Shown here: piece by piece, positions 15,001-27,200 of the stretch
Numbering within the stretch: position 1 is the stretch's first letter
Layout of the letters: each line of letters begins with the position of its first letter
Made by a program: the position numbers
Source: Phyllobates terribilis
Lineage: Eukaryota
NCBI RefSeq assembly: GCF_046119375.1
Contig: NW_027362797.1
Coordinates: forward strand, 12,400,001-12,464,000
Reading direction: 5' to 3'
Length of the DNA stretch: 64,000 nucleotides

Positions 15001-18000
15001 CTTCTAAATACGTAATTATGTTTTTTAATGTGTATAACAGATATTAATAATTTATCTTAGATCATAAAAATATCCTTTTGCATTCCAGCATCTGGTACTG
15101 ATGCTCAGTCTATGGTGCTGTTGCCTTAACTGTTGCTAGGCAACTTCCTTATAAGGTGAAATGCCCCTTTAAGATTCCATCACAAGATTCCATCATGTCA
15201 TCACTGCTATTATGACATCATAATTCACTACCACTACTTATACAAGTGTTTATAGGCCCCCTGTCACAGTGATACCCCGGTGTCATTGTTTTCAGTGTTT
15301 AGCTATTTACTAGTGATATACTGATTGCGCTTGGATTTGATTGAAATGTCTGGAATTCTTCCAGACAAATTTCAGGAGTTGGCACTACTCCAGGGGATTC
15401 TTACCACCTATACCCCTGACATTGTGCTACCACTACCCGATGGCGTCCTCAGCTTCACTTACCGGCTGGTTATGGAGTTGGTAAGGGACTGCCTGACCAA
15501 ATATCACCAAGGTCGCATTACATTTGAATATCTTGAGCATTTACAGCAGAACATCAAGACATTAGTAGAACAGGTAAATAGCAGACAATCTGCACAATTT
15601 ATTATTATTATTGTTGTTATTATTATTAGCAGGATCAAATGTTATTGTTATTATTATTATTGTTATCATTACTATTAGTATAAAGAGGCTTAGATGGTCA
15701 CCCCTATATAGTAGTATGATTAATAGTAATACAATTTAGATTTTCTCCTATGTCAGGCAGGGTTATATTTGTAACAGAGATCCCCAGTGGGTGTAAAAGT
15801 GTAGCTTGGATAGGATTGATACAAATGTCAGGGGTTGATTTCATTCCCAGTCCAGCCCTGATATCTTAGAAAAGATACTTCTTTTAGAACCTGAATCTAG
15901 ATTTCTCAGAAATATCATAAATACGTAATTATGATTTTTACTGTGTATAGTAGATATTAATAATTTACCTTAGAGCATAAAAATACCCTCACTGATCAGA
16001 AGAGAAAAGTACCCATAGCTCTTTCTTACATTCCAGCATCTGGTTCTAATACTTAGAATATGGAGTTGTCACCTTAACTATTGCTAGGCAACGTTCTTTT
16101 AAGTTGAGATACTCTGTTAAGATTCCATCACAACATTCCATCACGGCATCACTGCTATTATGACATCATATTTCACCACCACTGCTTATACAAGTGTATA
16201 TAGCCCTAGTGTAACAGTGATACCCCGTGTATCTAATATTGTATTTAATAATTGTGTATTTAATAATAATTGAATACAAGTTTATTTAAAGGGAACCTGT
16301 CGGGTCCCCCATGCCCTGTAAACCTGCAGTATTCAGCCATGTGTGATAAAAACCCCTCCCTAACCAGCCCTGTGTAGCATAATTCGGGTAAATTAATTAT
16401 TTAAAAAAAGTATTTATAACCTCCACTTTCCCTATGCTAATGAGGGTTTTGACTAGCTGATGGAGCGTTAGTTCCCCAGTCTAGTCAGCTCTCTTCTATG
16501 ATATCCCTTTGGACGTGATAACATAATTTACATGAGCATGGAAGAGGGGTGACTAGTCTGGGGAACTAACAAGCCATCAACTAGTCAAAACCCTCATTAG
16601 CATAGGGAAAGCAGAGCTTATAAATGTTTTTAAAAGAATTTATTTAACCGAATTTATGTTACATGAGGCTAGTTAGGGAAGGGGGTTCTATCACACATGG
16701 CTGAATACGGCGGGTTTACAGGGCATGGGGTATCTGATAGGTTTCTATACCAAATATCCAGCTATGTAGTAATTATAGCTGCAGATAGGAGCAAAATGGT
16801 GACATAAATGGCCTCCTAGATTCTGCACTTTCCCTCATTATTTTCCTTTTCTATATATTTGCATTTTGATAGGCTGAAGAAAAATCCCAAAGTGGAGAAT
16901 TGGCCTTTTTTAAACAACTGGCCCAAAATGTCCTGTGTATACTGAAGAGTCCGGCCCGCTCACCGGAGCACCTGGTAAGGATCCATCGTCTTCTAAATCA
17001 CATGTCCTTGTTGTCTGATCTTCTCCAGATTACCAGTCATATAGCAGAAGGTCAGATTTATGATGTTAGAGGCCTCCCTGTCATCTCCAGCCAGGCACAG
17101 GATATTATGACAGCCTGTTCCTGTGGCTCCATCATCTGTGATGACAGTCTGTACTCAGCGATACGGAGTTTGTATTCTGTATCTGTTTTGCTCGATCATC
17201 ACAATTTTCTTCTGGTAAATGCTGCTGTTCTGATAATAGAAGTTATTAGAGAACAGTTGTAGATACAAGTCCCTTATTTATTAATGTGGATTTACTAGAT
17301 GGGGCGGCTGTGAATAGTCCTCTCAATATTGAAATTATCCAGTAAATCCAGGTTTAGTCCTTCCTGCTTTGTGTATACAGTAATTTAGTATTTGTGAAAT
17401 GTTATACTAATTGTACATATTCTAACCATCAGGAAACATCAGAAGGTGACTCCGAAGAGGGGCAAAACGTGAATATGCCTGACTTTAATATTAGTCAGCT
17501 AGAGGTAGAAAATGATCTGATGGAAGGTAAGCCGATCATCTAATATTTTACATTCAAATATCGAGATATTATAGAGAACCACAGAGAATATGTAGATTTA
17601 TTCTTTATCCTCTGTATAGACTATAATGGAGAGGGCTCATGGAATTCTGCTTCTCTCCTCTGTGCTCTTCTCAGCTCCAAAATGTACAAGGTGGCTCATA
17701 GTTCCCCAATTATGTAATTGTTCAAGAATTAATCAGATCCTGAACAGTCGCACATTTATGGTGCAGTATATCTATCTATGGATGTGCCATACATGTATAC
17801 AGTATGTACAGAATACCATAGACCTAGTTTTATATCATTTACAGAGGTCTTGTCAATTCCTTCATTATATGGATGTGTTGTATATTAAGTACTGATACAG
17901 ACTGATAAATGACATCTCTTCATTATTTTATCATTATTTTAGAAATAACTGTGCCGGCAATTACTGATGGAAAATGTGAGACACCAGAGATCCACGAATC

Positions 18001-18182
18001 TGCCAGTGTAAGTATCAGAGAAGTCTGTATATCATCAGATAACGGGGAATGAATTACACATATAATATTACACCCCAGATGACAATGGGATATCTCTGCT
18101 CTTAGGCAGATCAGACCTATTGTGTGTGATGTTATTATTCCTGCTCTCTCCTTTGTGTTGTCCCTTATCCTCCCCTGCCATA

Positions 18183-24200: not shown

Positions 24201-27200
24201 GTCAGCGGGGCAGCATAAACATCTCGAGAGCAGAAAGACCCCACGTCTAGCACCCTGAAGAGGGTGCAGCATGTCCACCATCAAAGCTGCACCTCTATGG
24301 AAGGATTTGTACCATCTGCCTGTGGCCTTCTGACCAGCAAGGAACATCTGCAGAAGAAGAAGGCCCCTCCAAAAACATCTCATCATTCTTCCATGATATT
24401 CTTAATTAAAAAAAAAATCAAATTGAATAATGTTCATTTGTATTTAATGGAATATTACTGACATTCATGGCATATCAGTACGATACGTTATATATGTCTA
24501 GTGCGAGGGGTTACAAACAGGAGAATATCCGTTTCATGTCTTAGATTTACCCTATAAACCTTGGCCAAAAGTGGAGGAGAGGACGAGTGATCCTGTTACA
24601 TCTATGAATGACAGTCAATCCAAGGAAAAACATGTTCTGATCCCTAGATTTTCAAGACACTTGAACCCTTATACCTAAATGTGGCTTTACTTAAGTGTTA
24701 TCCATAGGAAGCTGTGACGCCTCTACTCGAAAGCCCTTTTCTTTACCCTGGGAGATGGGGGACTCAGAGTTGGGTCCCATGATGGAGAGATGGGGTGCAG
24801 CCGTGGCCCGGACCCGACCCATGCTCAGGGCCGTCACAATTAAAAGGATGGTGTGGGCTTATCCGGGTTGAGTGGCTGATTCCGACTACGCCACCTGTGG
24901 CACCTGGTGAAGGCCACCAGCAGTCCGCTGAGGCATGGTGTTATGGCGGCCCAAAGTTATTACTACTCCCCACAGGCGGAGCAAGGCCTCAGGGCAGAGA
25001 GACAGGATGACAGGGGTAGTAGTAGAGGAGTACGGGTGCCGCGTCGTGCGGTGTAGCGCAGAATAAACAGTCCGGAGGCCGTAGGGGTGAACTTCCAAGG
25101 CTTTACTCACATTAGAGATGGCAGAAGGAAGGTGACTCCCTGCTCCCCGCGGAGTCCTGCGGTCACCAGGGACGGGGGTCCTACTACCTCCGAGCAAGTC
25201 CAGCATTCAATCAGGACCCCGCACCAGAGTGTTCCTGAACTACAGACCGTATCCTTTCCTGTCTGTGTGTGTAGATAGGCCGGGTCTCCCTCTGAACTCC
25301 TCTCAGAAAAAGGGCACGGGTGGCAGCTCCGCTCCTTCCGATACCCGGTGGGATCCTGACCAGGACATGGAGTAGCAAGGTTGGGTGTCGGGGGCCGGTA
25401 CCCCTCTTGCAGCCGGACTCCCACTGAATATATTAGGTTGGCGAGGACAGGTGGCGTATACCGCTCCGTCTGCATCCTCCCTGGGATCCATTTGCTGTGG
25501 AGCTACAGGTCCACACAGGATCCACTTTCAGGGTAGGAGATCACAGTACATGACAGCCAGGCAAGATGACTAACCAGGACCGTCAAAGACCGGACTACCA
25601 GGACCAGCGAAAGACTAGATTCCCAGGTCCAGCGAAAAGACCACGAACCAAGATGGCTTTTTATTAAATATGAATTTTAAGATGTCACTAAATTGTAAGT
25701 CCTCCACCCTCACCCACTAACTGGTTCCCCTAACTCTTGGTTCACCAGTATCCCTGTAACCAGGAGGGCAGCACCTAGTGCATACTAGCCCCCTCTGGTG
25801 GAGAAATATGGTGTTGGATGCTAAGGTTGGGTCCCGACCATGACACTGTTCTTACCTCAGAGGAGGGACACTACACTCCATTAAAGAAGTGCAGCATCCC
25901 TGTGGCGGTCGAACCCTCAGGGGCGCCACAAAGCAGTTCCTGTGCTGTACATCCTGGGGTTCGCAGCAGCCACATTCCCCATATCCACCTAATAAGACAT
26001 ACTGTACTCCAGTCATATGAATTCACTTCTGGGAAAAAGCCTTTAAACTAGGGCTGTGGGGTCAGTAAGCCAAACTTCCATCTATAATAATTACGAATAA
26101 AAAATGTACTGCAACAAATAAGAGTAAATATTCAGCAATTTATACATGAAAATAATTTATATTATACAATATTAACAATATAGACGTTTTTACATTTTTC
26201 TTCATGCAGCTGGAATCGGTACCTTCTTCTGATACTAACTCCACAGTCCAGCTTTTTATTCTTTCCTGCTCCCCAACATTAAAATTACAGCATTTATGAT
26301 GAGTTTACCTACGATAAAAATTACAGACCTCTCCATGCTCTGTAGGTGGGAAAACTTGCAAAATCATCAGTGTATCAAATACTTATTTTCCCCACTGTAT
26401 ATATTTTATTTTATAGGCATCCTCTGCATAAAAATAAAAAATCATACTCACACGTATTACTCCAAGACAGTATAGTCCTCCATACAGTATTATGGGCACC
26501 ACATAGTCCTCCATACAGTATTATGGACCCCATATAAGGCTCCATATAGTATAATGGACCCTATATAATGCTCTATACAGAATAATGGGCCCCATATATT
26601 GCTCCGTACAGTATTATGGGCCCCCATATATTGCTCCATACAGAATAATGGACCCATATAATGCTCCAGATGGAATACTGGCCCCCATATAATGCTCCAA
26701 ACAGAATGCTGGCCCCCCATAATGCTTCATACAGAATAATGGACCCCATATAATGCTCTTTACAGAATAATGGGCCCCGTATATTGCTCTGTACAGTATT
26801 ATGGGCCCCATATATTGCTCCATACAGAGTCTGTATCAGGAGTGTAGCAGGCAGAGTCTGTATCAGATGTACAGCAGGCAGAGTCTGTATCAGGAGTGCA
26901 GCAGGCAGAGTCTGTATCAGAATGCAGCAGGTGTTGAGGGAGGGCAATAACCCTTCACGGTTGACCAAGTGAGTGTCAAATTATTATGTTGATTGCAATC
27001 CCCAGAAAACAAAACGGAAACAATGTTCAGTATTGGGAGGATTCAAAGAATCTCTGATCCCGTTTATTTTGCTTAGCATTTTATATTGTTTTGAATATTT
27101 TACTACAGTACTATAGGCTAACCAATGTTAGTACAATTATTACGGAAACACATATTTGGTCATATTATCATCGTTAGTTCGAAGCACTATGGAAATTGTT

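What the first reader, a model, noticed from the sequence alone, without database searches (positions are those of the whole stretch)
15346..24250. Intact, strongly diverged, PDZ-less MAST-like kinase gene isolated inside a transposon nest
Seen: 16 exons splice into a stop-free 650-aa protein while almost all flanking sequence is decayed mobile DNA. The VAIK Lys, alphaC Glu, HRD, DFG and APE motifs are all intact. The protein starts part-way into the DUF1908 region and ends without the PDZ domain and long tail of MAST1-4. Exon junctions fall where I recall them in MAST genes (GAFG|, YVAG|GDC, KPSN|, YFD|TR, LSK|), so it arose by DNA duplication and not retroposition. Known: MAST2 (MAST205) associates with spermatid microtubules, MAST3 phosphorylates ARPP-16, and Greatwall/MASTL phosphorylates ENSA/ARPP19 to inhibit PP2A-B55. 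Inference: this belongs to a lineage-specific, fast-evolving kinase family (I recall many MAST3-like predictions in frog assemblies), uncoupled from PDZ scaffolds and of unknown, possibly germline, function.
Basis: partly seen in the sequence, partly recalled or inferred. Interest (0 to 1): 0.68.

Follow-up and report, generated by a model that had tools for sequence, protein, structure and literature searches.

The report
Intact PDZ-less MAST-like kinase gene
A 9-kb, 16-exon gene in a transposon-rich stretch encodes an apparently intact short relative of the MAST protein kinases that keeps the helical bundle and the kinase but shows no PDZ domain; whether it is expressed is not known.

Summary
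On the + strand, 15346-24250, sixteen GT-AG exons chain in phase into 650 codons plus a stop. Searched exon by exon, exons 1-2 match the helical bundle of DUF1908 (solved human MAST1 and MAST3 domains). Exons 6-10 match the protein-kinase profile in colinear order. All catalytic motifs are present. The activation loop has the published MAST1-4 hallmarks: 37 residues between DFG and APE, Lys at DFG+3, Asp at APE-11, no phosphosite at APE-9. No PDZ was seen in 432 of 435 downstream pieces, and no earlier DUF1908 part in 150 of 172 upstream pieces, but single-exon sensitivity is limited. The bundle is only about 48% identical to human MAST1, yet the frame is open; unconstrained change would have closed it. 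Best reading: a partial DNA-level duplicate of a MAST gene that still encodes a working bundle + kinase + tail enzyme, like the active Mast2 construct without PDZ. The joined protein was neither searched nor folded.

The parts
15346..15573 (+). Exon 1: ATG plus the first three quarters of the DUF1908 helical bundle
   Evidence: Pfam DUF1908 3.7e-10, profile 142-202/281. PDB human MAST1 2m9x 5.9e-14 (chain 22-82) and MAST3 1v9v 1.2e-9. Donor score 5.1. An acceptor-like site at 15376 leaves the true 5' end open.
16873..16974 (+). Exon 2: last helix of the DUF1908 bundle
   Evidence: The only 2 PDB hits at E<=10 are MAST3 1v9v (80-109, E 0.039) and MAST1 2m9x (85-112, E 0.11). They continue the exon 1 alignments without a gap. 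No Pfam hit alone.
17433..17526 (+). Exon 3: acidic linker
   Evidence: Open frame, AG/GT, phase fits. No family hit.
17943..18007 (+). Exon 4: linker (labelled E3b in my calls)
   Evidence: Open frame, AG/GT, phase fits. No family hit.
18433..18518 (+). Exon 5: start of the kinase domain with the glycine-rich loop (S-S-G-A-F-G; first Gly of GxGxxG is Ser)
   Evidence: Translation and phase. Too short for a Pfam hit alone. Exon 6 starts at profile position 16, which leaves room for it.
19532..19740 (+). Exon 6: N-lobe with catalytic Lys (AMK) and alphaC Glu (ERD)
   Evidence: Pfam Pkinase 2.2e-7, profile 16-80. Best PDB hits are ROCK2/ROCK1/CBK1/PKA; the printed ROCK2 alignment shows Lys and Glu matched.
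20993..21131 (+). Exon 7: alphaD-alphaE and catalytic loop HRDLKPS(N)
   Evidence: Pfam Pkinase 2.4e-8, profile 87-127. The 5 PDB hits at E<=3e-6 are yeast PKA, DMPK, Greatwall 5loh and 8v5h, and PKA.
21231..21363 (+). Exon 8: DFG and most of the MAST-type activation-loop insertion
   Evidence: Pfam Pkinase 0.011, profile 129-163. Lys at DFG+3; 29 residues after DFG.
21503..21668 (+). Exon 9: end of the activation loop, APE, DWW, alphaF
   Evidence: Pfam Pkinase 1.9e-13, profile 158-205. Best PDB hits are RSK, S6K, PKC, AKT and NDR, about 1e-12.
21823..21924 (+). Exon 10: C-lobe end with RLG Arg
   Evidence: Pfam Pkinase 0.25, profile 227-253. RLG at residue 30 of 33.
22182..22304 (+). Exon 11: end of the kinase domain and start of the AGC tail
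   Evidence: Weak Pkinase_C 0.075, profile 1-11/44. Acceptor score 4.6.
22444..22553 (+). Exon 12: AGC tail with a turn-motif-like Ser followed by an acidic run, and I-x-x-F
   Evidence: Translation. Motif patterns and residue numbers from PMC12732324, section 'Regulation of Mast2's C-terminal kinase domain'. No Pfam hit.
22643..22731 (+). Exon 13: tail continuation; the L-S-K|L-C-S-I stretch spans the 12|13 junction where MAST1-4 have FxKV[Y/F]SS
   Evidence: Spacing inferred from the residue numbers and the translations. No Pfam hit.
23080..23162 (+). Exon 14: Ser/Glu/Lys-rich stretch
   Evidence: Acceptor 4.1, donor 5.8, phase fits. No family hit.
23799..23882 (+). Exon 15: 84-nt basic exon (E13b); the frame stays open with or without it
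   Evidence: The only phase-preserving open candidate that passed both splice-score cut-offs in any intron: acceptor 3.4, donor 7.7. The piece holding it has no Pfam hit.
24111..24250 (+). Exon 16: Arg/Ser-rich end and TAG stop
   Evidence: Acceptor 3.8, no donor above cut-off before the stop. No family hit. ATTAAA at 24405.

Best explanation
This is a protein-coding gene of the MAST lineage of AGC kinases. It was made by DNA-level duplication of the middle part of a MAST gene.

Shown: the introns are kept. The product holds the DUF1908 helical bundle, a complete kinase domain with the MAST1-4 type of activation loop, and the AGC tail. No PDZ and no earlier DUF1908 part were detected in the window.

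Inferred: the 650-residue product (622 if exon 15 is skipped) folds with the helical bundle packed against the activation-loop insertion. That contact, together with the Lys(DFG+3)-Asp(APE-11) ion pair, holds the kinase in an active shape without loop phosphorylation. This is what has been proposed for Mast2. The product would therefore be a constitutively competent Ser/Thr kinase that has lost PDZ-based targeting and the long regulatory ends. Its most likely substrates are those of the family's kinase core, the ENSA/ARPP19 class of PP2A-B55 inhibitors.
For: Gene structure: 16 exons, 15 of 15 introns GT-AG, 650 codons open, 0 of 10 split codons a stop.

Bundle: exon 1 hits Pfam DUF1908 at 3.7e-10 and solved MAST1 and MAST3 at 5.9e-14 and 1.2e-9. 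Exon 2 has MAST3 and MAST1 as its only 2 PDB hits, and these continue the exon 1 alignments.

Kinase: the Pkinase profile is matched colinearly over exons 6-10. AGC kinases are the top hits in PDB, and Greatwall is among the 5 hits of exon 7 at E<=3e-6.

Motifs: AMK, ERD, HRDLKP, DFG, APE, DWW and RLG are all present. There are 29+8 = 37 residues between DFG and APE, K at DFG+3, D at APE-11 and E at APE-9. PMC12024977 section 3 gives a 37-residue loop for MAST1-4. PMC12732324 section 'Irregularity of Mast2's activation loop' describes the K/D ion pair and the missing APE-9 phosphosite.

[quoted passage not shown] Passages of PMC11961639 report that the KIN-4 kinase domain phosphorylates ENSA-1 and replaces Greatwall in egg extract.

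Constraint: the bundle is about 48% identical to human MAST1 (43 of 89 aligned residues, my hand count). In a substitution simulation on the 640 complete codons, 11 of 300 runs were stop-free at 90% residue identity and 0 of 300 at 80%.

Locus: no second copy lies in the window (15 of 15 exon peptides tested, exon 15 not among them, hit only themselves). No transposon protein domain or antisense gene lies in or beside the gene (150 of 197 pieces on both strands).
Against: - No expression evidence of any kind.
- 9 of the 16 exon pieces have no Pfam hit at E<=1. One of the nine, exon 2, has only weak PDB support. Exons 14-16, which set the stop and hence 'PDZ-less', rest on splice scores and phase alone.
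- The 5' end is ambiguous: the first 10 codons overlap an acceptor-like pyrimidine tract plus CAG, and there is no CpG island.
- PDZ detection on single exons of a diverged gene is weak. At E<=0.05 Pfam sees only 5 of the 16 exon pieces singly.
- No MAST1-4 kinase domain is in PDB, so closeness of the kinase part to MAST1-4 was judged from loop and tail motifs and not from alignment.
- Some MAST tail features have decayed: Leu where the I-x-x-F-S motif has Ser, and only K and one S are kept of FxKV[Y/F]SS.
- The first Gly of the glycine loop is Ser; whether that is family-typical was not tested.
- The host species is unknown, and the divergence argument assumes a vertebrate host.
Confidence: 0.55

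Rival explanations
1. It is the middle of a larger, ordinary three-domain MAST gene. The exons for the first half of DUF1908 and for the PDZ domain and tail lie outside the window, or in transposon-swollen introns, or escaped single-exon detection. On this reading the ATG at 15346 and exons 15-16 are mispredictions.
For: An acceptor-like tttcag|GAG sits at 15376, exactly where homology to MAST1 starts. Exons 14-16 have no homology support. Pfam sees only 5 of 16 exon pieces at E<=0.05, so PDZ exons could be missed. The window ends 15 kb upstream and 40 kb downstream of the gene.
Against: 0 of 432 downstream + strand pieces of 30 aa or more hit PDZ (3 further pieces touching the N run were dropped). 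0 of 150 upstream pieces hit DUF1908. The same method recovered Pkinase in 5 pieces and DUF1908 in 1 inside the gene. The 15 known introns are only 89-1299 nt. About 48% identity to human MAST1 in the bundle is far below the 72-89% stated among MAST1-4 domains, if the host is a vertebrate.
Confidence: 0.25
2. It is a silent, unprocessed partial duplicate (a young pseudogene or never-expressed fragment) whose frame has not yet been hit.
For: It is cut at both ends relative to MAST1-4. It sits among retroelements with no CpG island at its 5' end. There is some decay of the tail motifs. No expression data exist.
Against: High divergence together with an open 650-codon frame: 0 of 300 unconstrained runs stay stop-free once 20% of residues differ. 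All catalytic residues, the loop ion pair and 15 of 15 splice-site pairs are intact.
Confidence: 0.15
3. It is a gene fragment picked up and moved by a transposon (transduplication). The same-orientation repeats around exon 1 would be part of the carrier.
For: A 74% identical repeat pair in the same orientation (14813-15279 and 15724-16227) brackets exon 1. The locus is transposon-rich.
Against: The repeats bracket only exon 1, not the 9-kb gene. No transposase or helicase domain was found in or beside the gene. Captured fragments rarely keep 16 exons in phase with every catalytic residue.
Confidence: 0.03

Closest known systems
MAST1-4 (microtubule-associated serine/threonine kinases of vertebrates)
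   Same: DUF1908 helical bundle directly matched to solved MAST1 and MAST3 domains. AGC kinase with 37 residues between DFG and APE, Lys at DFG+3, Asp at APE-11 and no phosphosite at APE-9. Turn-motif-like Ser followed by an acidic run, and I-x-x-F, at the published spacing.
   Different: No match to the first half of the DUF1908 profile. No PDZ and no long tail in the window. 650 residues against roughly 1300-2600 (PMC12732324, PMC12024977). About 48% identity in the bundle against 72-89% among the paralogues' domains. The Ser of I-x-x-F-S is Leu, and FxKV[Y/F]SS is reduced to K and one S. The stretch EDITRE stands where Mast2 has EKDARE (placement inferred).
Engineered Mast2 without PDZ (residues 294-867; PMC12732324, section on the DUF1908 domain)
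   Same: Same layout: DUF bundle, kinase, AGC tail, no PDZ. That construct keeps in vitro activity, while removal of DUF abolishes it.
   Different: That is a laboratory truncation of a conserved mouse protein. This is a natural, much diverged gene whose activity is untested.
Greatwall / MASTL
   Same: MAST-lineage AGC kinase without PDZ. It is among the 5 PDB hits of exon 7 at E<=3e-6. The ENSA/ARPP19 substrate class is shared by the lineage (passages of PMC11961639 and PMC12732324).
   Different: MASTL has no DUF1908 and carries an insertion of about 500 residues in the activation loop (papers). Here DUF1908 is present and the loop is 37 residues.
Plant IRE/IREH1 kinases
   Same: DUF-like bundle plus MAST-type kinase without PDZ (PMC12024977, abstract and section 3).
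   Different: A plant lineage with longer activation loops according to that paper.
C. elegans KIN-4
   Same: A MAST kinase with a short activation loop lacking a phosphosite. It is active when made in E. coli, and its kinase domain alone replaces Greatwall in egg extract (passages of PMC11961639).
   Different: KIN-4 is a three-domain protein with a working PDZ (title and abstract start of PMC6516182, seen in the search listing only).

Membership tests
MAST lineage (MAST1-4 type) | DUF1908 domain N-terminal to the kinase | tested here: met
   Exon 1 hits Pfam DUF1908 at 3.7e-10, above the curated cut-off (39.7 against 27.5 bits). PDB MAST1 2m9x 5.9e-14 and MAST3 1v9v 1.2e-9. Exon 2 continues both alignments. 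Only profile positions 142-202 of 281 are matched; the first half was not found.
MAST lineage (MAST1-4 type) | AGC-type kinase domain with intact catalytic residues | tested here: met
   Pkinase hits are colinear on exons 6-10. AGC kinases top the PDB hits. AMK, ERD, HRDLKP plus Asn, DFG, APE, DWW and RLG are present.
MAST lineage (MAST1-4 type) | Short MAST-type activation-loop insertion: 37-residue loop, Lys at DFG+3 paired with Asp at APE-11, no phosphosite at APE-9 | tested here: met
   29+8 = 37 residues between DFG and APE; K, D and E at the three positions. The criteria come from PMC12024977 section 3 and PMC12732324 section on the activation loop. How the paper counts its 37 is not stated in what I read.
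MAST lineage (MAST1-4 type) | AGC tail with turn-motif Ser, I-x-x-F-S and FxKV[Y/F]SS | tested here: inconclusive
   A Ser followed by an acidic run, I-Q-K-F and a Ser three residues on are present at near-published spacing. However, the motif Ser is Leu, and the last motif keeps only K and one S.
MAST lineage (MAST1-4 type) | PDZ domain C-terminal to the kinase | tested here: not met
   0 of 432 + strand pieces of 30 aa or more from 24251 to the window end hit PDZ at E<=0.05; 3 pieces touching the N run were dropped. The model ends at a stop at 24250. Sensitivity for single diverged exons is limited. As modelled, it is therefore not a canonical three-domain MAST1-4 member.
MAST lineage (MAST1-4 type) | Kinase domain groups with MAST1-4 in a tree | not testable with these tools
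   No MAST1-4 kinase domain is in PDB (also stated in PMC12732324).
MAST lineage (MAST1-4 type) | Exon junctions shared with MAST1-4 genes | not testable with these tools
   No reference gene structure was on hand. The only indirect support is that exon 1|2 is colinear with the solved domains and exon 12|13 fits the tail-motif spacing.
Greatwall / MASTL | Insertion of about 500 residues in the activation loop; no DUF1908 | tested here: not met
   The loop is 37 residues and DUF1908 is present.
Processed (retroposed) gene copy | No introns | tested here: not met
   15 GT-AG introns.

The most novel reading that the evidence does not exclude
A vertebrate lineage has evolved, and kept under selection, a natural 'mini-MAST'. 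It is only the DUF1908 bundle, the kinase and the tail, freed from PDZ scaffolds and from the long regulatory ends. It would act as a constitutively active ENSA/ARPP19 kinase, that is a Greatwall-like brake on PP2A-B55 that does not need Cdk1 activation. It may be expressed in germ cells or early embryos from a transposon-derived promoter.
Probability: 0.18. Interest if true: 0.6.

Novelty: new variant of a known kind. Interest (0 to 1): 0.4.

Why it matters
MAST kinases are poorly understood. The papers I read describe animal MASTs as three-domain proteins (DUF1908, kinase, PDZ). Only in 2025 was the DUF bundle shown to be needed for Mast2 activity in vitro and the PDZ to be dispensable.

A natural gene that keeps exactly the bundle, the kinase and the tail would be an evolutionary experiment matching that result. 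It would mark which residues of the bundle-loop interface and of the tail are truly required. If it is expressed, it would add a Cdk1-independent input to the ENSA/ARPP19-PP2A-B55 switch.

If it proves to be a fragment of a larger gene, or a silent duplicate, it is ordinary.

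Tried and rejected
I went on with stop-free pieces and exon references.
These served only as containers: each member is scanned alone, and nothing else in the alignments was used. The same method recovered Pkinase (5 pieces) and DUF1908 (1 piece) inside the gene.
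- The PDB search of exon 7 at E<=1e-8 found nothing because my threshold was too strict. I repeated it at 3e-6.
- Exon 8 alone gave only a weak EGFR match around DFG.
- The ESM Atlas with exon 1 gave no usable hit.
- Rfam on the whole window gave 0 matches, so no help with the host.
- tblastn of 15 exon peptides (exon 15 not among them) against the window gave self hits only.
- Paper searches: DUF1908+MAST+kinase found 13 papers. 'protein kinase 3-like'+microtubule-associated+Xenopus found 0. MAST kinase/gene duplication/lineage-specific/testis found nothing relevant among the 15 listed. kinome+Xenopus+MAST found 47 papers, 12 listed, none relevant. DUF1908 alone found 15 papers, and none by title or abstract start describes a PDZ-less vertebrate MAST paralogue. 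The review PMC10419289 has 0 mentions of Xenopus, zebrafish or paralog.
- Rejected: retroposition (15 introns), MASTL identity (short loop, DUF present), and a human origin of the window (see full report).
- The genome-contig scan was not used, since that collection holds bacteria and archaea only.

Full report
Scope and method. The finding was checked on the window itself. All homology searches were made exon by exon, or stop-free piece by stop-free piece. The joined 650-residue product was neither searched nor folded. This leaves open what a full-length search, tree or structure model would add. Copy number, orthologues, dN/dS and the host species therefore stayed unchecked. I do not take the window for human, for two reasons. 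Its MAST-like bundle is only about half identical to the two human MAST domains in PDB. Its flanks also hold an open 1351-codon retrotransposon pol frame and a LINE with an esterase-type first ORF.

Gene structure. Stop-free stretches on the + strand between 15.3 and 24.3 kb were linked through GT and AG sites scored with a simple consensus. A 15-exon chain is consistent in phase at every junction. A search for extra phase-preserving open exons in all introns found one candidate that passed both score cut-offs, at 23799-23882 (84 nt). With it the model has 16 exons and 1953 nt, that is 650 codons plus TAG. 15 of 15 introns are GT-AG and measure 89-1299 nt. 0 of 10 split junction codons is a stop. 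Exons have 45.2% GC and introns 37.0%. I number exons 1-16 in order; the labels E3b, E4-E13, E13b and E14 in my calls are exons 4, 5-14, 15 and 16.

Homology, exon by exon.
- Exon 1 hits Pfam DUF1908 at 3.7e-10 (profile 142-202 of 281). It also hits the solved DUF1908 domains of human MAST1 (2m9x, 5.9e-14, chain 22-82) and MAST3 (1v9v, 1.2e-9).
- Exon 2 alone has no Pfam hit. Its only two PDB hits at E<=10, out of 177,635 distinct sequences, are again MAST3 (chain 80-109) and MAST1 (chain 85-112). These continue the exon 1 alignments directly. The exon 1|2 splice is therefore colinear with the solved domain, and nearly the whole helical bundle is encoded.
- Exons 6, 7, 8, 9 and 10 hit Pkinase at 2.2e-7, 2.4e-8, 0.011, 1.9e-13 and 0.25. 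The profile positions are 16-80, 87-127, 129-163, 158-205 and 227-253 of 263.
- Exon 11 gives a weak Pkinase_C hit at 0.075.
- In all, 7 of 16 exon pieces have a family hit at E<=1. Nine have none: exons 2-5 and 12-16.
- In PDB the kinase exons find AGC kinases first: ROCK, CBK1 and PKA for exon 6; RSK, S6K, PKC, AKT and NDR for exon 9; yeast PKA, DMPK, Greatwall (5loh, 8v5h) and PKA for exon 7.
- No MAST1-4 kinase domain is in PDB. PMC12732324 (section on the activation loop) says the same.

Catalytic and family-specific features.
- The landmarks of an active kinase are all present: AMK Lys and ERD Glu in exon 6, and HRDLKPS in exon 7. The Asn codon is AA in exon 7 and is completed by T from exon 8. 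DFG is in exon 8, APE and DWW are in exon 9, and RLG is in exon 10. The glycine loop in exon 5 reads S-S-G-A-F-G.
- The papers give further marks of MAST1-4. These are a 37-residue activation loop (PMC12024977, section 3) and an insertion without the usual phosphosite at APE-9. There is also an ion pair between Lys at DFG+3 and Asp at APE-11, and a polar stretch EKDARE that contacts the DUF bundle (PMC12732324, section on the activation loop).
- Here 29 residues follow DFG in exon 8 and 8 precede APE in exon 9, which makes 37. DFG+3 is Lys, APE-11 is Asp and APE-9 is Glu.
- The six residues before F-x-D read EDITRE. That this is the counterpart of EKDARE is my inference.
- In the tail the paper lists three motifs: a turn-motif Ser in an acidic context, I-x-x-F-S, and FxKV[Y/F]SS. 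Their residue numbers fix the spacing. Exon 12 has H-S followed by DLDEED, then I-Q-K-F-L sixteen residues later, with Ser three residues on. The stretch L-S-K|L-C-S-I across the exon 12|13 junction falls where the third motif is expected. The tail is therefore recognisable but worn, and the exon 12|13 junction looks ancestral.

The two ends.
- Upstream. The 150 longest of 172 + strand stop-free pieces of 30 aa or more between 1 and 15212 gave no DUF1908 hit at E<=0.05. The 22 pieces of 30-32 aa were dropped.
- Start. The ATG at 15346 has G at -3. However, codons 6-10 overlap a pyrimidine tract ending in CAG, with GAG at 15376, and homology to MAST1 and MAST3 begins at residues 13-15. Either the first ten codons were recruited from a former intron end, or exon 1 is really an internal exon. 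There is no CpG island.
- Downstream. 432 of 435 + strand pieces of 30 aa or more from 24251 to 63999 were scanned in three batches. The 3 pieces touching the N run were dropped. None hit PDZ at E<=0.05.
- Control. The same procedure on the gene and its near flank, both strands (150 longest of 197 pieces), recovered Pkinase in 5 pieces and DUF1908 in 1. It found no transposon domain and no antisense gene.
- Limits. Pfam sees only 5 of the 16 exon pieces singly at E<=0.05, so a diverged PDZ split over short exons could be missed. Exons 14-16 rest on splice scores and phase only.

Divergence and constraint. From the printed alignments I count 30 of 61 identical residues to MAST1 and 24 of 63 to MAST3 for exon 1. 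For exon 2 the counts are 13 of 28 to MAST1 and 14 of 30 to MAST3. That is about 48% to MAST1 overall. PMC12732324 (section 'MAST kinase orthologs') gives 72-89% domain identity among mammalian MAST1-4. I then ran a simple simulation on the 640 complete codons, with random substitutions and a twofold transition bias. 11 of 300 runs were still stop-free when 10% of residues had changed, and 0 of 300 at 20% or more. Most of this gene's divergence therefore cannot have built up without selection on the frame. Indels would make this stronger. The argument assumes a vertebrate host. The flanking retrovirus-like integrase and envelope pieces suggest that, but it is not proven.

Surroundings.
- Introns. 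The introns hold three palindromic, MITE-like repeats: 16294-16743, 20559-20753 and 23480-23695. A same-orientation repeat pair (14813-15279 and 15724-16227, 74% identical) brackets exon 1. No second MAST-like copy is in the window.
- Upstream, on the minus strand. One LINE has an endonuclease plus reverse-transcriptase ORF and an esterase-type ORF (2318-5382). An L1-like element lies at 8988-13443, with a coiled-coil ORF, reverse transcriptase and zf-RVT.
- Downstream. A retrovirus-like piece lies between 88.6% identical direct repeats (outer bounds 26928-31279, minus strand). It has an integrase with the MLV-type C-terminal domain and the end of a TLV_coat-type envelope. A degenerate Gypsy-like element lies at 43322-50007 (+). 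A related one has its pol frame open for 1351 codons at 59768-63820 (-). Several tandem arrays are also present.
- 'Transposon nest' is fair. 'Almost all decayed' is not shown.

How it most likely works.
- Shown: the gene encodes bundle, kinase and tail with every catalytic residue and the loop ion pair.
- From the literature: Mast2 lacking PDZ (294-867) is as active in vitro as the longer construct. Removal of DUF or mutation of EKDARE cuts activity, and Mast2 phosphorylates ENSA Ser67 (PMC12732324: abstract, sections 6-9 and passages). KIN-4 has a short loop without a phosphosite and is active when made in E. coli. It phosphorylates ENSA-1, and its kinase domain replaces Greatwall in egg extract (PMC11961639, passages).
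- Inferred: this product is a constitutively competent kinase of the same core specificity, without PDZ-based targeting.

Comparison and novelty. In layout it equals the engineered Mast2 without PDZ and recalls the plant IRE kinases, which have DUF but no PDZ (PMC12024977, abstract and section 3). It is not MASTL. As modelled it fails the PDZ criterion of the animal three-domain MASTs. I therefore file it as a MAST-lineage kinase of a variant layout, not as a MAST1-4 member. In five paper searches I saw no description of a PDZ-less vertebrate MAST paralogue. Automatic gene predictions in sequence databases could not be consulted, and supplements were closed.

Verdict. This is a moderately interesting new variant of a known kinase family. 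Its standing depends on transcript evidence for its two ends.

Noticed in passing
window 26928-31279 (minus strand): A retrovirus-like piece bounded by 88.6% identical direct repeats of about 480 bp. Pfam recognises an integrase (end of the core plus the MLV-type C-terminal domain) and the C-terminal end of a TLV_coat-type envelope. The integrase-like frame carries 2 in-frame stops inside its one tblastn match to the pol at 59768-63820. No gag, protease or reverse transcriptase was seen, but only 13 of 44 minus-strand pieces of 60 aa or more between 24.0 and 39.5 kb were scanned. Described only.
   Followed up: partly
window 59768-63820 (minus strand): A Gypsy-like pol frame open for 1351 codons: aspartic protease, reverse transcriptase, RNase H and integrase. 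Its upstream part runs off the window end.
   Followed up: partly
window 43322-50007 (plus strand): A degenerate relative of that pol, 68% identical at protein level. It appears as 4 matches in 2 frames with 16 in-frame stops inside the matches. It spans about 6.7 kb against 4.05 kb for the open frame, so it has at least one frame change and extra inserted DNA (RT, RNase H and integrase hits).
   Followed up: partly
window 2318-5382 (minus strand): A LINE with a 687-codon ORF (endonuclease plus reverse transcriptase), preceded by a 292-codon ORF with a GDSL-esterase/OSK-like domain.
   Followed up: no
window 8988-13443 (minus strand): An L1-like non-LTR element in several open pieces: a coiled-coil piece, reverse transcriptase and zf-RVT. 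Inside it, 12653-13466 is a 406-bp unit repeated 2.0 times at 100% identity. This is either a very recent duplication or an assembly artefact.
   Followed up: partly
window 16294-16743, 20559-20753, 23480-23695 and 50720-51103: Palindromic, MITE-like repeats with arms 69-89% complementary. Three of them lie in introns 1, 6 and 14 of the MAST-like gene.
   Followed up: no
window 14813-15279 and 15724-16227: Two copies of one repeat, 74% identical and in the same orientation, bracket exon 1. The upstream copy ends 67 bp before the ATG and could supply a promoter, which is speculation.
   Followed up: no
window 52494-54774, around the N run 54778-54922: 31/94-bp and CA-rich 47/92-bp tandem arrays with strong A and C skew. 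5 of the 144 + strand pieces scanned between 50417 and 63999 hit Pfam SH3_CYT4 at best 9.4e-5. Which pieces is not reported; I take it for a repeat-driven chance match arising from these arrays. The N run was left alone.
   Followed up: no
window 24251-26900: A GC-richer stretch (50-59% GC) directly after the stop of the gene. It has no Pfam hit on either strand in the pieces scanned, and a 31/93-bp tandem array at 26471-26828. Its nature is unknown.
   Followed up: partly
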